This document shows, piece by piece, positions 22,355 through 30,491 of a stretch of 64,000 nt of DNA (the first letter of the stretch is position 1; each line of letters begins with the position of its first letter). A program made the translations under genes and the position numbers. Under the pieces are notes generated by a model, which saw nothing but the letters and a program-made list of their open reading frames with translations, was not told the DNA's origin and made no database searches. Source of the DNA: an uncultured Chloroflexia bacterium (GTDB taxonomy: Bacteria > Chloroflexota > Limnocylindria > Limnocylindrales > CSP1-4); contig CAVPPB010000002.1 of assembly GCA_963707215.1 (NCBI GenBank), positions 32,001 through 96,000 of the forward strand, written 5' to 3'.

Positions 22355-23638
22355 GTGCGCGCAGGGACAGCCCGGTCTCGAATTCGGCCAGCGATCCTGA
22401 TCCGACTCGCCTGGATCAACGTCGCCGTGCTCCTGGTGGCGGCGTTCCTGCCGCTCGGTGGCCCAAGCCTCGCCGCCTCGGTCGAGCCGGTCACCTCGGT
22501 CCAGGACGGGAGGCTCGCCGGGAACCCCAAGTGCGCCTCGATCGATGACTGGTACGGGAACGGCCAGACGTGGACCGACGCCAAGATCGACGCCGAGCCT
22601 CGCGACGGCAGCTATGGATTCGGCAACGGCCGGATCATCACGATCTCGAACTGGGATCCAGGGACCCGGACCTTCGACTGGACGTCGACGTTCGGGATCG
22701 ACGCGGTCTTCATCAAGGCCGGCCAGGGGAACGGCGGCTTCAACACCCTGTACGTCTACGCCCCGACGAGCGGGTCGCTCGAGTCATTCGGCGACACGGA
22801 GCTGACGTCCCTCGGCCCACGTGGTGTCAGCCACGTCGACTTCTGCTGGGACCAGGACGTGCCGCACCCCAGCCCGTCTCCCAGCGCCAGCATCGGACCG
22901 TCGGCCAGCCCGAGCCACAAGCCCTGCCCGAGCCCGAGCATGGCACCGAGCCCATCCCCGAGCCACGAGCCCTGCCCGAGCGTCGCCCCGAGCCCGAGCG
23001 TTCCGCCGAGCCCGAGCCCGTCGGCGAGCATCCAGCCGTCGGCGAGCCCGAGCGTCGCCCCGAGCCCGAGCCCGAGCCCGAGCCCGAGCCCGTCGCCCAG
23101 CCCGAGCGTGCCGCCGAGCCCGAGCCCGAGCCCGAGCCCGAGCCCGTCGGCGAGCAACCAGCCGTCGGCGAGCCCGAGCGTCGCCCCGAGCCCGAGCCCG
23201 AGCCCGAGCCCGTCGCCCAGCCCGAGCGTGCCGCCGAGCCCGAGCCCGTCGCCCAGCCCGAGCCCGTCGGCGAGCAACCAGCCGTCGGCGAGCCCGAGCG
23301 TCGCCCCGAGCCCGAGCCCGTCGGCGAGCCCGAGCGTCGCCCCGAGCCCGAGCGTCGCCCCGAGCCCGAGCCCGTCGGCGAGCATCCAGCCGTCGGCGAG
23401 CCCGAGCGTTCCGCCGAGCCCGACCGCGAGCGTGGCCCCCAGTCCCTCTCCGAGCCCCACCGGGGAGGTCGGCGGGATCACCTTCCCGCCGAGTGCTACG
23501 CCTCCGGCGACCGACATCCCCTCCGGCCCGGCGTCGCCGACCGAGTGGGCGTGGCGCCTCGCGCTGCTCCTGCTGGTGGCCGTGCAGGCCGTCGCCCTGA
23601 AGATCGTCCCGCGCCTGCTGGGCCTGGCTGCCGGCTGA
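22355..23638 (+). CDS. Secreted/surface protein A: signal peptide, ~125-aa two-Cys domain, long Ser-Pro stalk, TPPATD motif, C-terminal TM
   Basis: GGAGGT before GTG; 'GNPKC...[17 protein letters not shown]...SHVDFCWD'; paralogous to 29614-30491. Confidence 0.85.
22865..23460 (+). repeat. Coding Ser-Pro tandem repeats ((AGCCCG)n with higher-order ~120-bp units)
   Basis: AGCCCG hexamer arrays; '[15 protein letters not shown]' block recurs at ~23033, 23159, 23279, with a variant at 23387. Confidence 0.9.
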
Positions 23639-23734
23639 ATCCGTCGCCTGCGAGTCGGCGACCCCCGATCAGGACGGACGTACCAGGACCGTCGGTGCCC
23701 TTGCGCACCGGAATCCCCGCCGAGCAAGGGACAG

Positions 23735-23814
23735 GGTAGGGGAGGTAGGGGCGGTTCCCTACTGGTCCGGTGCGGACCTGAGCAGTACCATCCGCGGTCC
23801 GCTCGGCCTAGCAT
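23735..23814 (+). promoter_or_regulatory. Candidate operator GTAGGG-N6-CCCTAC and -10 hexamers upstream of the adhesin gene
   Basis: Inverted repeat 23745-23762, direct repeat GGTAGGGG x2, TACCAT 23786-23791 and TAGCAT 23809-23814. Confidence 0.35.
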
Positions 23815-23987
23815 CGGTCCTGCGGTACCAGTCCCGGGCATGACCCGGGTCGTGGTCGTCGGTCTCGGGGGCCGGCCATGTGATCCGTCCCCCCTGAAGG
23901 AATCGTCGGCGTCGTATGACGCTCGCACATCGTGAGGTCGGTCGAAATCGACAGACCCGGTCTCGGGGACTCGGGAGGGCAGATCGA

Positions 23988-29186: not shown

Positions 29187-29203
29187 GCCCGAGCTCCCAC
29201 CAG

Positions 29204-29362
29204 CAGGGCCCGGCGCTCCGTCGCCGGGCCCGGTGAACCCAGGGGTCCCCGAGACCCGGACGGGGCGCGCCGCCCCCGCGGCGTGCCCCGTCCTGAGTCC
29301 GAGCGCACGAGCGCTGTTCCGAGTGCTCGAGACCGGGGTGCGGGTCGTCCGCACCCCGGTCC
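29204..29362 (+). terminator. Cluster of GC-rich hairpins after the adhesin gene (terminator / mRNA stabiliser)
   Basis: GGGCCCGGCG..CGCCGGGCCC; GGACGGGGCGCGCCGC..GCGGCGTGCCCCGTCC; GACCGGGGTGCGG..CCGCACCCCGGTC. Confidence 0.6.
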
Positions 29363-29613
29363 TCGTACGTCCCGCGGATACGGAAAGGCGGTTCGGTCTG
29401 GTTCGCACTGGTCCAGGGGCGTCCCGAGAGGTAGCATGCTGGTCCGCGGCCATCGTCGCCGGCCGCGGGACCGGGCCGAGCGCGTTCGATCCGGCCACCG
29501 GTCTCGGGGTCGATGCCCATCGTCTCCGAGGGGACTCGTCGGCGTCGCACGACGCCGCGACTGGCCGGGCCTGCCGTGGATCGGCTGGCTTCGGATCCGG
29601 AGGGACCGTCGCA

Positions 29614-30491
29614 TGACACGGGGCACCGTGGACAGGCGGCCCAGCCGAGGGCCTTTCCTCGGCCGCGTCGCGCTGCTCCTCGTTTCGATCGGTCTGCTGA
29701 GCCTGTCGCTGGTCGGTCCGGCAGAAGCGCTGGCCGCATCGGTCGAGCCGGTGACCTCGCTCCAGGACGACCGGCTTGCCGGGAACCCGACCTGCGCCGA
29801 GATCGCCGCGTGGTACGGCGGCGGGCAGAGCTGGTCCGGCGCGAAGATCGACCGGGAGCCCGCGCCCGGCACCTACGAGTTCGGAGCCGGCAGGTCGATC
29901 ACGATCAGCGGCTGGGATCCGACGACCGGCACGCTCGACTGGACCTCGACGTTCGGGGTCGACGCAGTGCTCTTCAAGGCCGGCCAGGGCAACGGCGGAT
30001 TCAACACCCTGTACGTCTACGCGCCGACCGCGGCTTCCGTCGAATCGCTCGGCGACACCGGCCTCAGGTCACTGTCGCCGACCGGCGTCAGCCACGTCGA
30101 CTTCTGCTGGGATACGGGAGCGCCGAGCCCGAGCCCATCGCCCGAGGCCAGCCTCCAGCCGAGCGCCTCCCCCGGAGCGAGCCCGAGCCCATCGCCCGAG
30201 GCCAGCCTCCAGCCGAGCGCCTCCCCCGGAGCGAGCCCGAGCCCATCGCCCGAGGCCAGCAGCGGACCCGTCGGATCACCCGAGGCGCCAGCTTCGCCGA
30301 GCCCGAGCCCGACCGGCGGGGTCCTGCCGGCGGTCGTGTCGCCTGCCGTCACGCCGCCGCCCACGGACGACGTGATCATCATCGGCACGCCGGATCGGTC
30401 GCCCGCCTGGCTTGCCGCCCTTGCCGTCGGGCTGGCCTCCCTCGCCGCCCTTGCGGTCGCGATTCGCCGACGTTCCCGTCAGACCGGATGA
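29614..30491 (+). CDS. Secreted/surface protein B, paralog of 22355-23638: short Ser-Pro stalk, TPPPTD, TM, RRR tail
   Basis: GGAGG before ATG 29614; 'SVEPVTSLQDDRLAGNPTC...SHVDFCWD'; 54-bp direct repeat in the stalk. Confidence 0.87.

What the first reader, a model, noticed from the sequence alone, without database searches (positions are those of the whole stretch)
22355..30491. Three adjacent surface proteins share a non-canonical C-terminal sorting signal: TPPxTD + spacer + TM + basic tail
Seen: three consecutive co-oriented genes end in the same tripartite signal. They are TPPATD (23498-23515), TPPPTD (29022-29039) and TPPPTD (30351-30368), each followed by a ~10-14-aa spacer, a hydrophobic helix and a short tail with basic residues (..KIVPR.., ..RIRNTREDGR, ..RRRSR). 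The large adhesin is otherwise unrelated to the two small paralogs, so the motif is a portable module. Known: this is the layout of sortase LPxTG signals and of PEP-CTERM-like tags. Inference: PPxTD is a lineage-specific sorting motif in which Asp replaces the Gly after the scissile Thr, handled by a sortase or other transpeptidase encoded elsewhere (none in this window). A pilus- or fibre-like assembly of one shaft and two ancillary subunits is possible. I do not recognise a described family for this motif.
Basis: partly seen in the sequence, partly recalled or inferred. Interest (0 to 1): 0.82.

Follow-up and report, generated by a model that had tools for sequence, protein, structure and literature searches.

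The report
New PPTD surface-protein sorting tail
Three neighbouring surface-protein genes of an uncultured soil-type Chloroflexota bacterium end in the same conserved T-P-P-x-T-D tail plus membrane helix, an undescribed relative of the Gram-positive LPXTG wall-anchoring signal that probably works with an odd sortase carrying serine where all studied sortases have cysteine.

Summary
All three genes end in T-P-P-[A/P]-T-D, a 13-residue polar spacer, a hydrophobic helix and a tail with basic residues, at the stated coordinates.

It is not chance. The genome holds four more such tails, on unrelated cargo (DUF4397, HYR, two unknown). I counted 7 observed against 0.34 expected.

The consensus is T-[P/L]-P-[P/A]-T-[D/S/N], 7-13 residues before the helix. 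It recurs 1-7 times per genome in 13 of 15 sampled genomes of one Candidatus Limnocylindrales family, and not convincingly in 286 other Chloroflexota genomes. No Pfam or NCBIfam sorting-signal model hits it, and four literature searches found nothing.

The likely enzyme is the genome's only sortase-fold protein. It keeps the catalytic His but has an invariant Ser (WLQTSEG) in place of the TLxTC Cys. Ser-type sortases occur in all five sampled Limnocylindria families. Two of the other four families have LPSTS/LPDTS signals.

Cleavage, wall attachment and the enzyme-substrate link are inferred, not shown. The enzyme gene is never next to a substrate gene. The pilus idea has no support.

This scan reached the same reading before on other DNA (e1-759092, e1-2846466, e1-1408352, e1-1252323).

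The parts
22355..23638 (+). Gene 1 (427 aa): signal peptide, ~130-aa beta-sandwich domain of no named family, ~200-aa Pro/Ser-rich stalk, sorting-type tail
   Evidence: No Pfam family. Against its orthologue P0002 the N-terminal domain is 83% identical and the tail 79%, while the stalk cannot be aligned.
23498..23635 (+). Tail of gene 1: TPPATD (23498-23515), spacer [13 protein letters not shown] (23516-23554), hydrophobic stretch (23555-23608), PRLLGLAAG (23609-23635)
   Evidence: Profile hit E 6e-15.
23916..29186 (+). Gene 2 (1756 aa from ATG 23916; likely start 23988 or 24012): signal peptide, DUF11 x10 / DUF7507 / isopeptide-type repeats, sorting-type tail
   Evidence: A 1732-aa protein 100% identical to the query tail is in the protein collection (P0044).
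29022..29183 (+). Tail of gene 2: TPPPTD (29022-29039), spacer (29040-29078), hydrophobic helix (29079-29138), TPVPARIRNTREDGR (29139-29183)
   Evidence: Profile hit E 1e-16.
29613..30491 (+). Gene 3 (292 aa from ATG 29613; the ORF is open from 29283): paralogue of gene 1 with a short Pro/Ser stalk and sorting-type tail
   Evidence: The AF2 model shows a beta-sandwich (pLDDT 80-90 over residues 50-170) with no clear PDB match.
30351..30488 (+). Tail of gene 3: TPPPTD (30351-30368), spacer (30369-30407), hydrophobic helix (30408-30464), RRRSRQTG (30465-30488)
   Evidence: Profile hit E 1e-17.

Best explanation
The three genes encode Sec-exported surface proteins. Each ends in a lineage-specific variant of the sortase-type (LPXTG-like) C-terminal sorting signal: T-[P/L]-P-[P/A]-T-[D/S/N], a 7-13-residue polar spacer, a membrane helix of about 20 residues, and a basic tail.

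Proposed mechanism:
1. The helix and basic tail hold the exported protein in the membrane.
2. The motif is then presented to the family's membrane-anchored sortase-fold enzyme (G000 contig 3; L001:1231-1944). In this enzyme the catalytic Cys is a conserved Ser (His134 / Ser200 / Lys209).
3. The enzyme cuts within or after the motif, by analogy after the second Thr.
4. It transfers the protein to a cell-envelope acceptor such as peptidoglycan. Alternatively it simply releases the protein.

Shown: the conserved module, its restriction to one Limnocylindrales family, its portability between unrelated cargo, the sortase fold of the candidate enzyme, and its Cys-to-Ser change.

Inferred: cleavage, the scissile bond, the acceptor, and that this enzyme is the one involved.
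For: Module is real and conserved:
- There are 7 tails in this genome on unrelated cargo: DUF11, DUF4397, HYR and unknown domains.
- Enrichment is 7 observed against 0.34 expected.
- Homologues of gene 3 were picked by their N-terminal domain. All 6 that have a C-terminal helix carry [T/L/S]-P-P-(P)-T-D before it.
- A profile of the 7 tails was run against 1.84 billion representative proteins and gave 32 hits at E <= 1e-3. On reading them, 30 of 32 carry the motif at the C-terminus.
- In a MAFFT alignment of 23 tails the only invariant columns are T, P and T of the motif.
- 69 of 76 non-redundant profile hits have T-x-P-x-T. Position 2 is P 46 / L 16, position 4 is P 59 / A 9, position 6 is D 42 / S 15. 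The spacer is mostly 7-13 residues.
- Between gene 1 and its orthologue the tail is as conserved as the folded domain, while the stalk is not.

Lineage restriction:
- Family f1: 13 of 15 genomes, with 1-7 hits each.
- f2: 0 of 2. f3: 1 of 15. All other families together: 5 of 268. These six non-f1 hits are weak and lack the motif when read.

Enzyme candidate:
- It is the single PF04203 match in the genome (31-33 bits against a cut-off of 26.6).
- The AF2 model has domain pLDDT of about 80-96, and every Foldseek top hit is a sortase, E about 3e-8.
- A profile-to-PDB alignment puts WLQTSE on TLVTCE and YAHAR on the catalytic His.
- Ser is invariant in 10 of 10 aligned sequences and in 118 of 120 of the best database homologues.
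- The enzyme is present in 15 of 15 and 17 of 17 sampled f1 genomes.

Context:
- Sister families carry Ser-type sortases (TLQTS[QT]G). Families f69 and f3 hold LPSTS/LPDTS + helix + RRR signals that pass TIGR01167.
- The genome encodes PBP transpeptidases, so it has a wall to attach to.
- No LPXTG or LAXTG substrate and no exosortase were found.
Against: - No experiment bears on cleavage.
- The enzyme lacks the nucleophilic Cys of every characterised sortase, and in family f1 it also has Lys where Arg is expected. It could be inactive or do something else.
- Enzyme and substrate genes are never linked. There were 0 tail-bearing ORFs within +-6 kb of 80 sortase-like loci (845 kb), by two profiles and a motif-free screen.
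- The f1-type enzyme clade is wider than the tail. Family f2 has the enzyme (2 of 2 and 3 of 3 genomes) but only weak hits to the helix part of the tail profile, in 2 of 16 genomes and 0 of 2. One f3 genome (G231) has an f1-type copy but no tail.
- Co-occurrence within one family is confounded by common descent.
- Three f1 genomes also carry a Cys-type sortase-domain gene. G000 is only 85% complete, so a second enzyme could be unassembled.
- The spacer is longer than I recall for classical LPXTG signals.
Confidence: 0.5

Rival explanations
1. The tail is a true cleaved sorting signal, but a different, still unrecognised enzyme handles it (a membrane protease or transpeptidase, as with exosortase, archaeosortase, rhombosortase or myxosortase). 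The Ser-type sortase-fold protein has another role.
For: - There is no gene linkage between enzyme and tails.
- Enzyme distribution is wider than tail distribution: f2 and G231 have the enzyme without the tail.
- The catalytic Cys is missing.
- Features in and around the helix are conserved in subsets of tails: W-R at its start, T-P at its end, and LLICLAFG...QRRxIRR in one subfamily. Such features are typical of signals read by intramembrane enzymes.
Against: - No exosortase or archaeosortase homologue was found, and only one generic rhomboid.
- The motif is literally LPxT-x in 16 of 69 tails.
- It grades into the LPSTS/LPDTS signals of sister families that pass the LPXTG model.
- In G000 and G009, each with 7 tail hits, the Ser enzyme is the only sortase-fold gene detected.
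Confidence: 0.2
2. The tail is never cleaved. The proteins stay as type I membrane proteins held by the C-terminal helix, and T-P-P-P-T-D is a conserved hinge, O-glycosylation site or docking site in the stalk just outside the membrane.
For: - The motif sits in Pro/Thr/Ser-rich stalks.
- The spacer of 7-13 residues is rather long.
- The candidate enzyme lacks Cys.
- Other C-terminally anchored proteins of the genome have no motif at all.
Against: - Composition alone does not produce the motif: 0.135 of 7 in shuffles.
- The position relative to the helix is fixed, and the stalk around it is free to vary.
- The same architecture in sister families is recognised as an LPXTG anchor.
- A conserved, apparently selected sortase-fold gene is present in every f1 genome sampled.
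Confidence: 0.2
3. The three genes form a sortase-assembled pilus or fibre: the DUF11 protein is the shaft and the two small paralogues are ancillary subunits.
For: - The three tail-bearing genes are adjacent.
- Gene 2 matches the isopeptide-forming fimbrial domain model TIGR04226 (92 bits, 4 stretches).
- Tail-bearing genes are often clustered in relatives, for example four on G009 contig 11 and three on G280 contig 35.
- In relatives the gene-3-type N-domain is fused to a gene-2-type C-terminal domain (P0005, P0006).
Against: - There is no pilus-type (class C) sortase in or near the locus. The single sortase-fold gene is on another contig.
- I did not look for a pilin motif, and none came to notice.
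- The same tail sits on a cupredoxin and on DUF4397, HYR and MBG proteins elsewhere. This fits a general anchoring signal.
Confidence: 0.05

Closest known systems
LPXTG cell-wall sorting signal with sortases of classes A-F (TIGR01167 / PF00746; PF04203, MEROPS C60)
   Same: - The layout is tripartite: a short motif with Pro at position 2 and Thr at position 4, then a hydrophobic helix, then a basic tail.
- It sits at the end of Sec-exported surface proteins with unrelated cargo.
- A membrane-anchored sortase-fold protein is encoded elsewhere in the genome, like a housekeeping sortase.
- 16 of 69 tails read LPPT-x.
   Different: - Position 5 is Asp, Ser or Asn instead of Gly (G in 2 of 69).
- Position 1 is mostly Pro, and an extra Thr before the motif is invariant in the alignment.
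- The spacer is 7-13 residues.
- TIGR01167 finds nothing in this genome, and hmmscan finds no anchor model.
- The enzyme has Ser for the catalytic Cys and, in this family, Lys for Arg.
Non-Gly sortase signals: class B NPQTN, class D LPXTA and B. subtilis YhcR LPDTS, class E LAXTG, C. difficile (S/P)PXTG. The motifs are recalled from memory; only listing abstracts of PMC4155245 and PMC5148588 were seen.
   Same: These show that sortase motifs tolerate changes at positions 1 and 5. The LPSTS/LPDTS signals of sister Limnocylindria families look like the class D type.
   Different: As far as I recall, all of those are handled by Cys sortases. None has the T-P-P-P-T-D form or the long spacer.
Other C-terminal sorting domains: PEP-CTERM/exosortase, PGF-CTERM/archaeosortase, GlyGly-CTERM/rhombosortase, MYXO-CTERM/myxosortase (listing abstract of 10.1101/2023.06.07.544157)
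   Same: Each is a short signature motif plus helix plus basic cluster, lineage-restricted, found on many unrelated proteins per genome.
   Different: - In those domains the motif abuts or lies in the helix.
- Their enzymes are polytopic membrane proteins.
- No exosortase or archaeosortase homologue is found here.
- The motif has no PEP, PGF, GlyGly or invariant Cys.

Membership tests
LPXTG-type cell-wall sorting signal (TIGR01167 / PF00746) | Pentapeptide L-P-x-T-G | tested here: not met
   The motif is T-[P/L]-P-[P/A]-T-[D/S/N]. Gly at the last position occurs in 2 of 69 tails and Leu at the first in 16 of 69.
LPXTG-type cell-wall sorting signal (TIGR01167 / PF00746) | Hydrophobic helix followed by a basic tail at the extreme C-terminus | tested here: met
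   There are 37-46 residues after the motif in most tails.
LPXTG-type cell-wall sorting signal (TIGR01167 / PF00746) | Scores above the curated model cut-off | tested here: not met
   TIGR01167 gives 0 matches in G000 at E <= 0.01. hmmscan of the three proteins at E <= 1 shows no anchor model except NPXTG at E 0.88 on the helix.
LPXTG-type cell-wall sorting signal (TIGR01167 / PF00746) | Cleaved by a sortase and linked to peptidoglycan | not testable with these tools
   This needs proteomics or enzymology. PBP genes show that a wall is made.
Sortase (PF04203, MEROPS C60): candidate enzyme L001:1231-1944 | Pfam sortase domain above the gathering score, and the sortase beta-barrel fold | tested here: met
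   31.2 bits against 26.6. The Foldseek top hits are all sortases, E about 3e-8, probability 1.0.
Sortase (PF04203, MEROPS C60): candidate enzyme L001:1231-1944 | Catalytic His | tested here: met
   His134 in YAHAR is invariant in 10 of 10 sequences. It aligns with the SHH His of SrtA chains (the E-values are weak and are used only for register).
Sortase (PF04203, MEROPS C60): candidate enzyme L001:1231-1944 | Nucleophilic Cys in TLxTC | tested here: not met
   WLQTSEG: Ser200 aligns with the Cys of TLVTCE. Ser is found in 10 of 10 and 118 of 120 sequences. Sister families read TLQTS[QT]G. Homologues outside the class read LLLETC and LTLQTC.
Sortase (PF04203, MEROPS C60): candidate enzyme L001:1231-1944 | Conserved Arg after the nucleophile strand | tested here: inconclusive
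   Family f1 has an invariant Lys209 at about that place. The f69/f70 type keeps DPRF/YV. Residue-level structural superposition was not available.
PEP-CTERM / exosortase-type systems | Exosortase or archaeosortase gene plus a PEP- or PGF-type motif at the helix | tested here: not met
   PF09721 gives no match in G000, which is 85% complete. The motif is different.
GlyGly-CTERM / rhombosortase | GlyGly motif at the helix start plus a dedicated rhomboid | tested here: not met
   One generic rhomboid match was found. The aligned tails have no GlyGly motif.

The most novel reading that the evidence does not exclude
A whole class of Chloroflexota (Limnocylindria) has replaced the cysteine sortase by a serine version of the same fold that is still an active transpeptidase. 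One of its families has re-tuned both partners: the enzyme to WLQTSEG with Lys and a disulfide-bearing C-terminal extension, and the signal from LPxT[S] to T-P-P-P-T-D with a long spacer. The three genes in this window would then be native substrates of a natural Ser-His sortase, an enzyme chemistry not described for MEROPS C60.
Probability: 0.4. Interest if true: 0.85.

Novelty: new variant of a known kind. Interest (0 to 1): 0.72.

Why it matters
Limnocylindria (CSP1-4 / Ellin6529-type Chloroflexota) are, as far as I recall, abundant uncultured soil and freshwater bacteria whose cell surface is unknown.

A defined sorting tail gives a simple rule for listing their surface proteome, and a profile that annotation pipelines lack.

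If the Ser-type sortase is the processing enzyme, it would overturn the textbook definition of sortases as cysteine transpeptidases. It could also offer an oxidation-insensitive ligase with a new recognition motif for protein engineering.

Even if the enzyme assignment fails, the tail marks an orphan sorting system whose enzyme can now be sought by phylogenetic profiling.

Tried and rejected
- **Enzyme-tail complex.** Complex prediction of the sortase-like catalytic domain (residues 84-237, alignment A2) with the first 32 residues of the tail alignment A3 gave no verdict: score 0.31 against a mark of 0.32. I do not use it either way.
- **Gene linkage.** I looked for linkage between the sortase-like gene and tail genes in 80 loci (845 kb). 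There were no hits with profile A1, profile A3, a motif regex, or a motif-free screen for C-terminal helix plus basic tail.
- **Canonical substrates.** LP.TG and LA.TG near C-termini gave 4 and 5 ORFs, none with a sorting-signal layout. One LPQTG lies in a small membrane protein that I take from memory to be YggT-like.
- **Other sorting enzymes.** No exosortase; one generic rhomboid.
- **Word-indexed search of longer proteins with A3.** Only 6 hits, crowded out by chance word matches, so it says little about family size.
- **N-domain of genes 1 and 3.** The fold search in PDB gave no match with E <= 0.001. Its function is left open.
- **PDB sequence search with the single sortase-like protein.** Only spurious hits. 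The profile search gave weak sortase hits, used for register only.
- **Tree of 40 sortase domains.** Ser and Cys rows can be split by one branch, but support is weak (74/80), and one row (L151) was badly extracted and sits on a very long branch. A single origin of Ser is compatible with the tree, not shown.
- **Promoter/terminator scan of the locus.** Nothing useful.
- **My first strict regex.** It missed gene 1 because its helix holds Arg, Gln and Lys.
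Full report
**The observation**

The window is 72% G+C. It lies on contig 2 of a 3.26-Mb, 5-contig, 85%-complete genome.

Three co-oriented ORFs occupy 22355-30491.
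- Gene 1 (22355-23638, 427 aa) and gene 3 share a signal peptide, a ~130-residue domain and a Pro/Ser stalk. Gene 3 is open from 29283, but its likely start is ATG 29613, giving 292 aa.
- Gene 2 (23916-29186) is a DUF11 (10 stretches)/DUF7507 repeat protein with matches to the isopeptide-forming fimbrial domain model.

The motifs TPPATD, TPPPTD and TPPPTD lie exactly at the reported coordinates. Each is followed by 13 polar residues, an 18-20-residue hydrophobic stretch and a tail with basic residues.

**More than chance**

I read all 170 ORFs of the genome that end in a helix plus basic residue. This showed four further proteins with the same tail:
- a DUF4397 protein (TPPPTD);
- a small stalk protein (TPPPTN);
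- a 477-aa ORF with no Pfam family (TPPPTS);
- a 12-repeat HYR protein (LPPTAT).

With the pattern T.P[PAS]T[DNSA], 7 of 188 such ORFs have it within 30 residues before the helix. The expectation from its overall density is 0.34. Shuffling those seven 30-mers keeps the motif in 0.135 of 7 on average.

A profile of the 7 tails (A1) retrieves just these 7 from all six-frame ORFs (E <= 4e-14; next hit 0.0058).

No convincing LPXTG or LAXTG substrate exists in the genome. TIGR01167 finds none.

**Conservation elsewhere**

Homologues of gene 3 were found through its N-terminal domain (10 besides itself).
- Six have a C-terminal helix, and all six carry [T/L/S]PP(P)TD before it.
- One is a 199-residue fragment that stops in the stalk.
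- Three distant ones have other C-termini.

Profile A1 against 1.84 billion representative proteins gave 32 hits at E <= 1e-3. On reading them, 30 of 32 end in the motif, a spacer, a helix and a basic tail.

A MAFFT alignment of 23 tails (A3) has only three invariant columns, the T, P and T of the motif.

Of 76 non-redundant profile hits collected from loci and proteins, 69 contain T-x-P-x-T in the last 70 residues. That regex fixes the T, P and T, so only the other positions are informative:
- position 2: P 46, L 16;
- position 4: P 59, A 9, S 1;
- position 6: D 42, S 15, N 3, A 3, G 2, T 2, P 1, L 1;
- spacer to the helix: 7-13 residues in 65 of 69;
- residues after the motif: 37-46 in most.

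Many tails also have a loose G-[E/A]-T-G-T-P a few residues upstream and W-R at the helix start. One subgroup has LLICLAFG...QRRxIRR.

Between gene 1 and its orthologue P0002 the folded domain is 83% identical and the tail 79%. The stalk cannot be aligned and differs about four-fold in length.

Cargo domains include DUF11, DUF4397, HYR, cupredoxin, MBG_2 and several with no family. The tail is therefore a portable, selected module.

**Taxon and distribution**

Titles of close public relatives name Candidatus Limnocylindrales / Limnocylindria (Chloroflexota).

Among 41 relatives, A1 matched 20 of 24 genomes of the same family (f1). It matched 2 of 16 genomes of the small-genome sister family f2. 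Those two hits are weak and cover only the helix part of the profile.

In a sample of 301 genomes of the phylum, A3 at E <= 1e-4 matched as follows:
- 13 of 15 f1 genomes, with 1-7 matches each;
- 0 of 2 f2 genomes;
- 1 of 15 f3 genomes;
- 5 of 268 others.

The six non-f1 matches have no motif when read. Only 22 candidates per genome were scored, so the counts are lower bounds.

Tail genes are often clustered, for example four on G009 contig 11 and three on G280 contig 35.

**Is it catalogued?**

hmmscan of the three proteins against NCBIfam and Pfam at E <= 1 shows no sorting-signal model. The only exception is an insignificant NPXTG hit on the helix.

Four full-text searches were run.
- Motif strings: 20 papers, none on bacterial sorting.
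- 'sortase' + 'Limnocylindria': 0 papers.
- 'sortase/Chloroflexi/sorting signal/LPXTG': 309 papers, 25 listed by title and start of abstract, none describing this.
- Serine or pseudo-sortase terms: 16 papers, none relevant by title or abstract.

I saw listings only and opened no paper. Subscription journals are outside the library.

**The candidate enzyme**

The genome has one PF04203 match. It is a 237-residue protein with an N-terminal helix, a Pro/Ser linker and a 150-residue domain.
- The AF2 model has domain pLDDT of about 80-96, and Foldseek returns only sortases at the top (E about 3e-8, probability 1.0).
- Ten f1 orthologues show invariant His134 (YAHAR), Thr199-Ser200-Glu201 (WLQTSEG), Lys209 and two Cys (C111, C236).
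- A profile-to-PDB search aligns YAHAR with the catalytic His stretch and WLQTSE with TLVTCE of SrtA chains. The E-values are weak (0.5-2), so I use it for register only.
- The catalytic Cys is therefore a Ser.
- 118 of 120 best database homologues (of 3260 at E <= 1e-5) read WLQTS. All 120 have exactly two Cys. Sources name them 'sortase' or 'hypothetical protein'.

**The Ser change is class-wide**

- f3-type enzymes read LTLQTSQG (5 of 5 loci; one more).
- f2 enzymes read LQTSET (3 of 3).
- f69/f70 enzymes read LTLQTSTGP...DPRF/YV and so keep the Arg (12 of 12).
- The nearest homologues outside the class read LLLETC and LTLQTC. A third was not resolved.
- The 150-residue windows printed for the f69/f70-type domains contain no Cys in 10 of 11.

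A2 homologues occur in 57 of 61 sampled genomes of the class: f1 17/17, f2 3/3, f69 16/19, f3 19/20, f70 1/1.

A tree of 40 domains gives three Ser subfamilies. The f1 type forms a supported group with f2 (98/99). The Ser/Cys split fits one branch, but with weak support (74/80), and one row was badly extracted.

Three f1 genomes carry a second, f69-like Ser enzyme. Three others carry an additional Cys-type sortase-domain gene. G000 shows neither.

**Link between enzyme and tail**

For the link:
- Both are near-universal in f1.
- In G000 and G009, each with 7 tail hits, the Ser enzyme is the only sortase-fold gene detected.
- Families f69 and f3 combine Ser-type enzymes with LPSTS/LPDTS + helix + RRR signals that pass TIGR01167. 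The f1 tail thus reads as a derived form of a class-wide LPxT-[S] signal.
- PBP genes show that a wall exists.

Against the link:
- No tail gene lies within 6 kb of 80 enzyme loci.
- f2 and one f3 genome (G231) have f1-type enzymes but no detectable tails.
- Co-occurrence inside one family is not independent evidence.
- The genome is incomplete.

The tally includes one genome flagged unpublished (G306).

**Reading**

Most likely (0.5) this is a lineage-specific variant of the sortase system: a T-[P/L]-P-[P/A]-T-[D/S/N] signal processed by a Ser-type sortase. Cleavage, acceptor and enzyme identity are inferred.

The rivals are:
- the same signal handled by an unknown enzyme (0.2);
- an uncleaved membrane anchor with a conserved juxtamembrane motif (0.2);
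- a pilus (0.05).

It fails membership of the LPXTG model family because there is no Gly and no model hit. The enzyme fails the defining Cys of C60 sortases. The system still works like, and evidently descends from, that system.

**Earlier notes of this scan**

Earlier notes on other genomes describe the same pairing of PPTD-type or LPxTST tails with Ser-type sortases in Limnocylindria-like Chloroflexota. I saw them only after reaching this reading. They are unchecked AI notes, not independent evidence.

Noticed in passing
window 25645-27102: There is a perfect 729-bp tandem duplication (two identical 243-aa blocks, each two DUF11-type repeats) inside gene 2. It is either a very recent duplication or an assembly artefact.
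   Followed up: partly
window 22974-23423 and 30124-30260: The Pro/Ser stalks of genes 1 and 3 are built from imperfect 18/72-nt and perfect 54-nt tandem repeats. Stalk length differs about four-fold between gene 1 and its orthologue P0002.
   Followed up: partly
window 31381-32780 (- strand): Just downstream of gene 3 there is an ECF-type sigma factor ORF (32184-32780) overlapping an ORF with a helix and PGKPSEPPGKPSQ repeats (31381-32187). It looks like a sigma/anti-sigma pair by eye. I did not test whether it regulates the surface locus.
   Followed up: no
L001:424-1062 (- strand) and 31 of 80 loci L029-L108: A thioredoxin-like CxxC membrane protein is encoded divergently within 1.5 kb of the Ser-type sortase gene in 31 of 80 loci (30 divergent). 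The enzyme has exactly two conserved Cys (C111, C236), so a disulfide is suggested.
   Followed up: partly
L201-L203 (G256, G010, G360) and L198-L200 (G355, G127, G288): Some genomes of the same family carry an extra sortase-domain gene. It is either a Cys type (..LTLQTCVG..RL.VRLV) or a second Ser type like that of family f69. Their substrates are unknown.
   Followed up: partly
P0005, P0006: In relatives, the N-terminal domain of genes 1 and 3 is fused to the last DUF11-type domain and tail of gene 2, with gene 2's signal peptide. The three window genes therefore exchange modules.
   Followed up: no
L011, L110, L114, L116, L120, L135, L137; P0019, P0021, P0022, P0033, P0036: A tail subfamily (mostly TPP[PA]T[SN]) has a strongly conserved helix, PLFALLICLAFG..L..V..QRRxIRR, with a Cys in the membrane. 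It often sits on MBG_2 repeat proteins.
   Followed up: no
G000 C3 (- strand ORF of 222 aa): One further protein of this genome ends ..ALPDTAVAPETPAAQG + helix + RRARLR. This is an LPDTA-type signal like those of sister families. It was not hit by the tail profiles.
   Followed up: no
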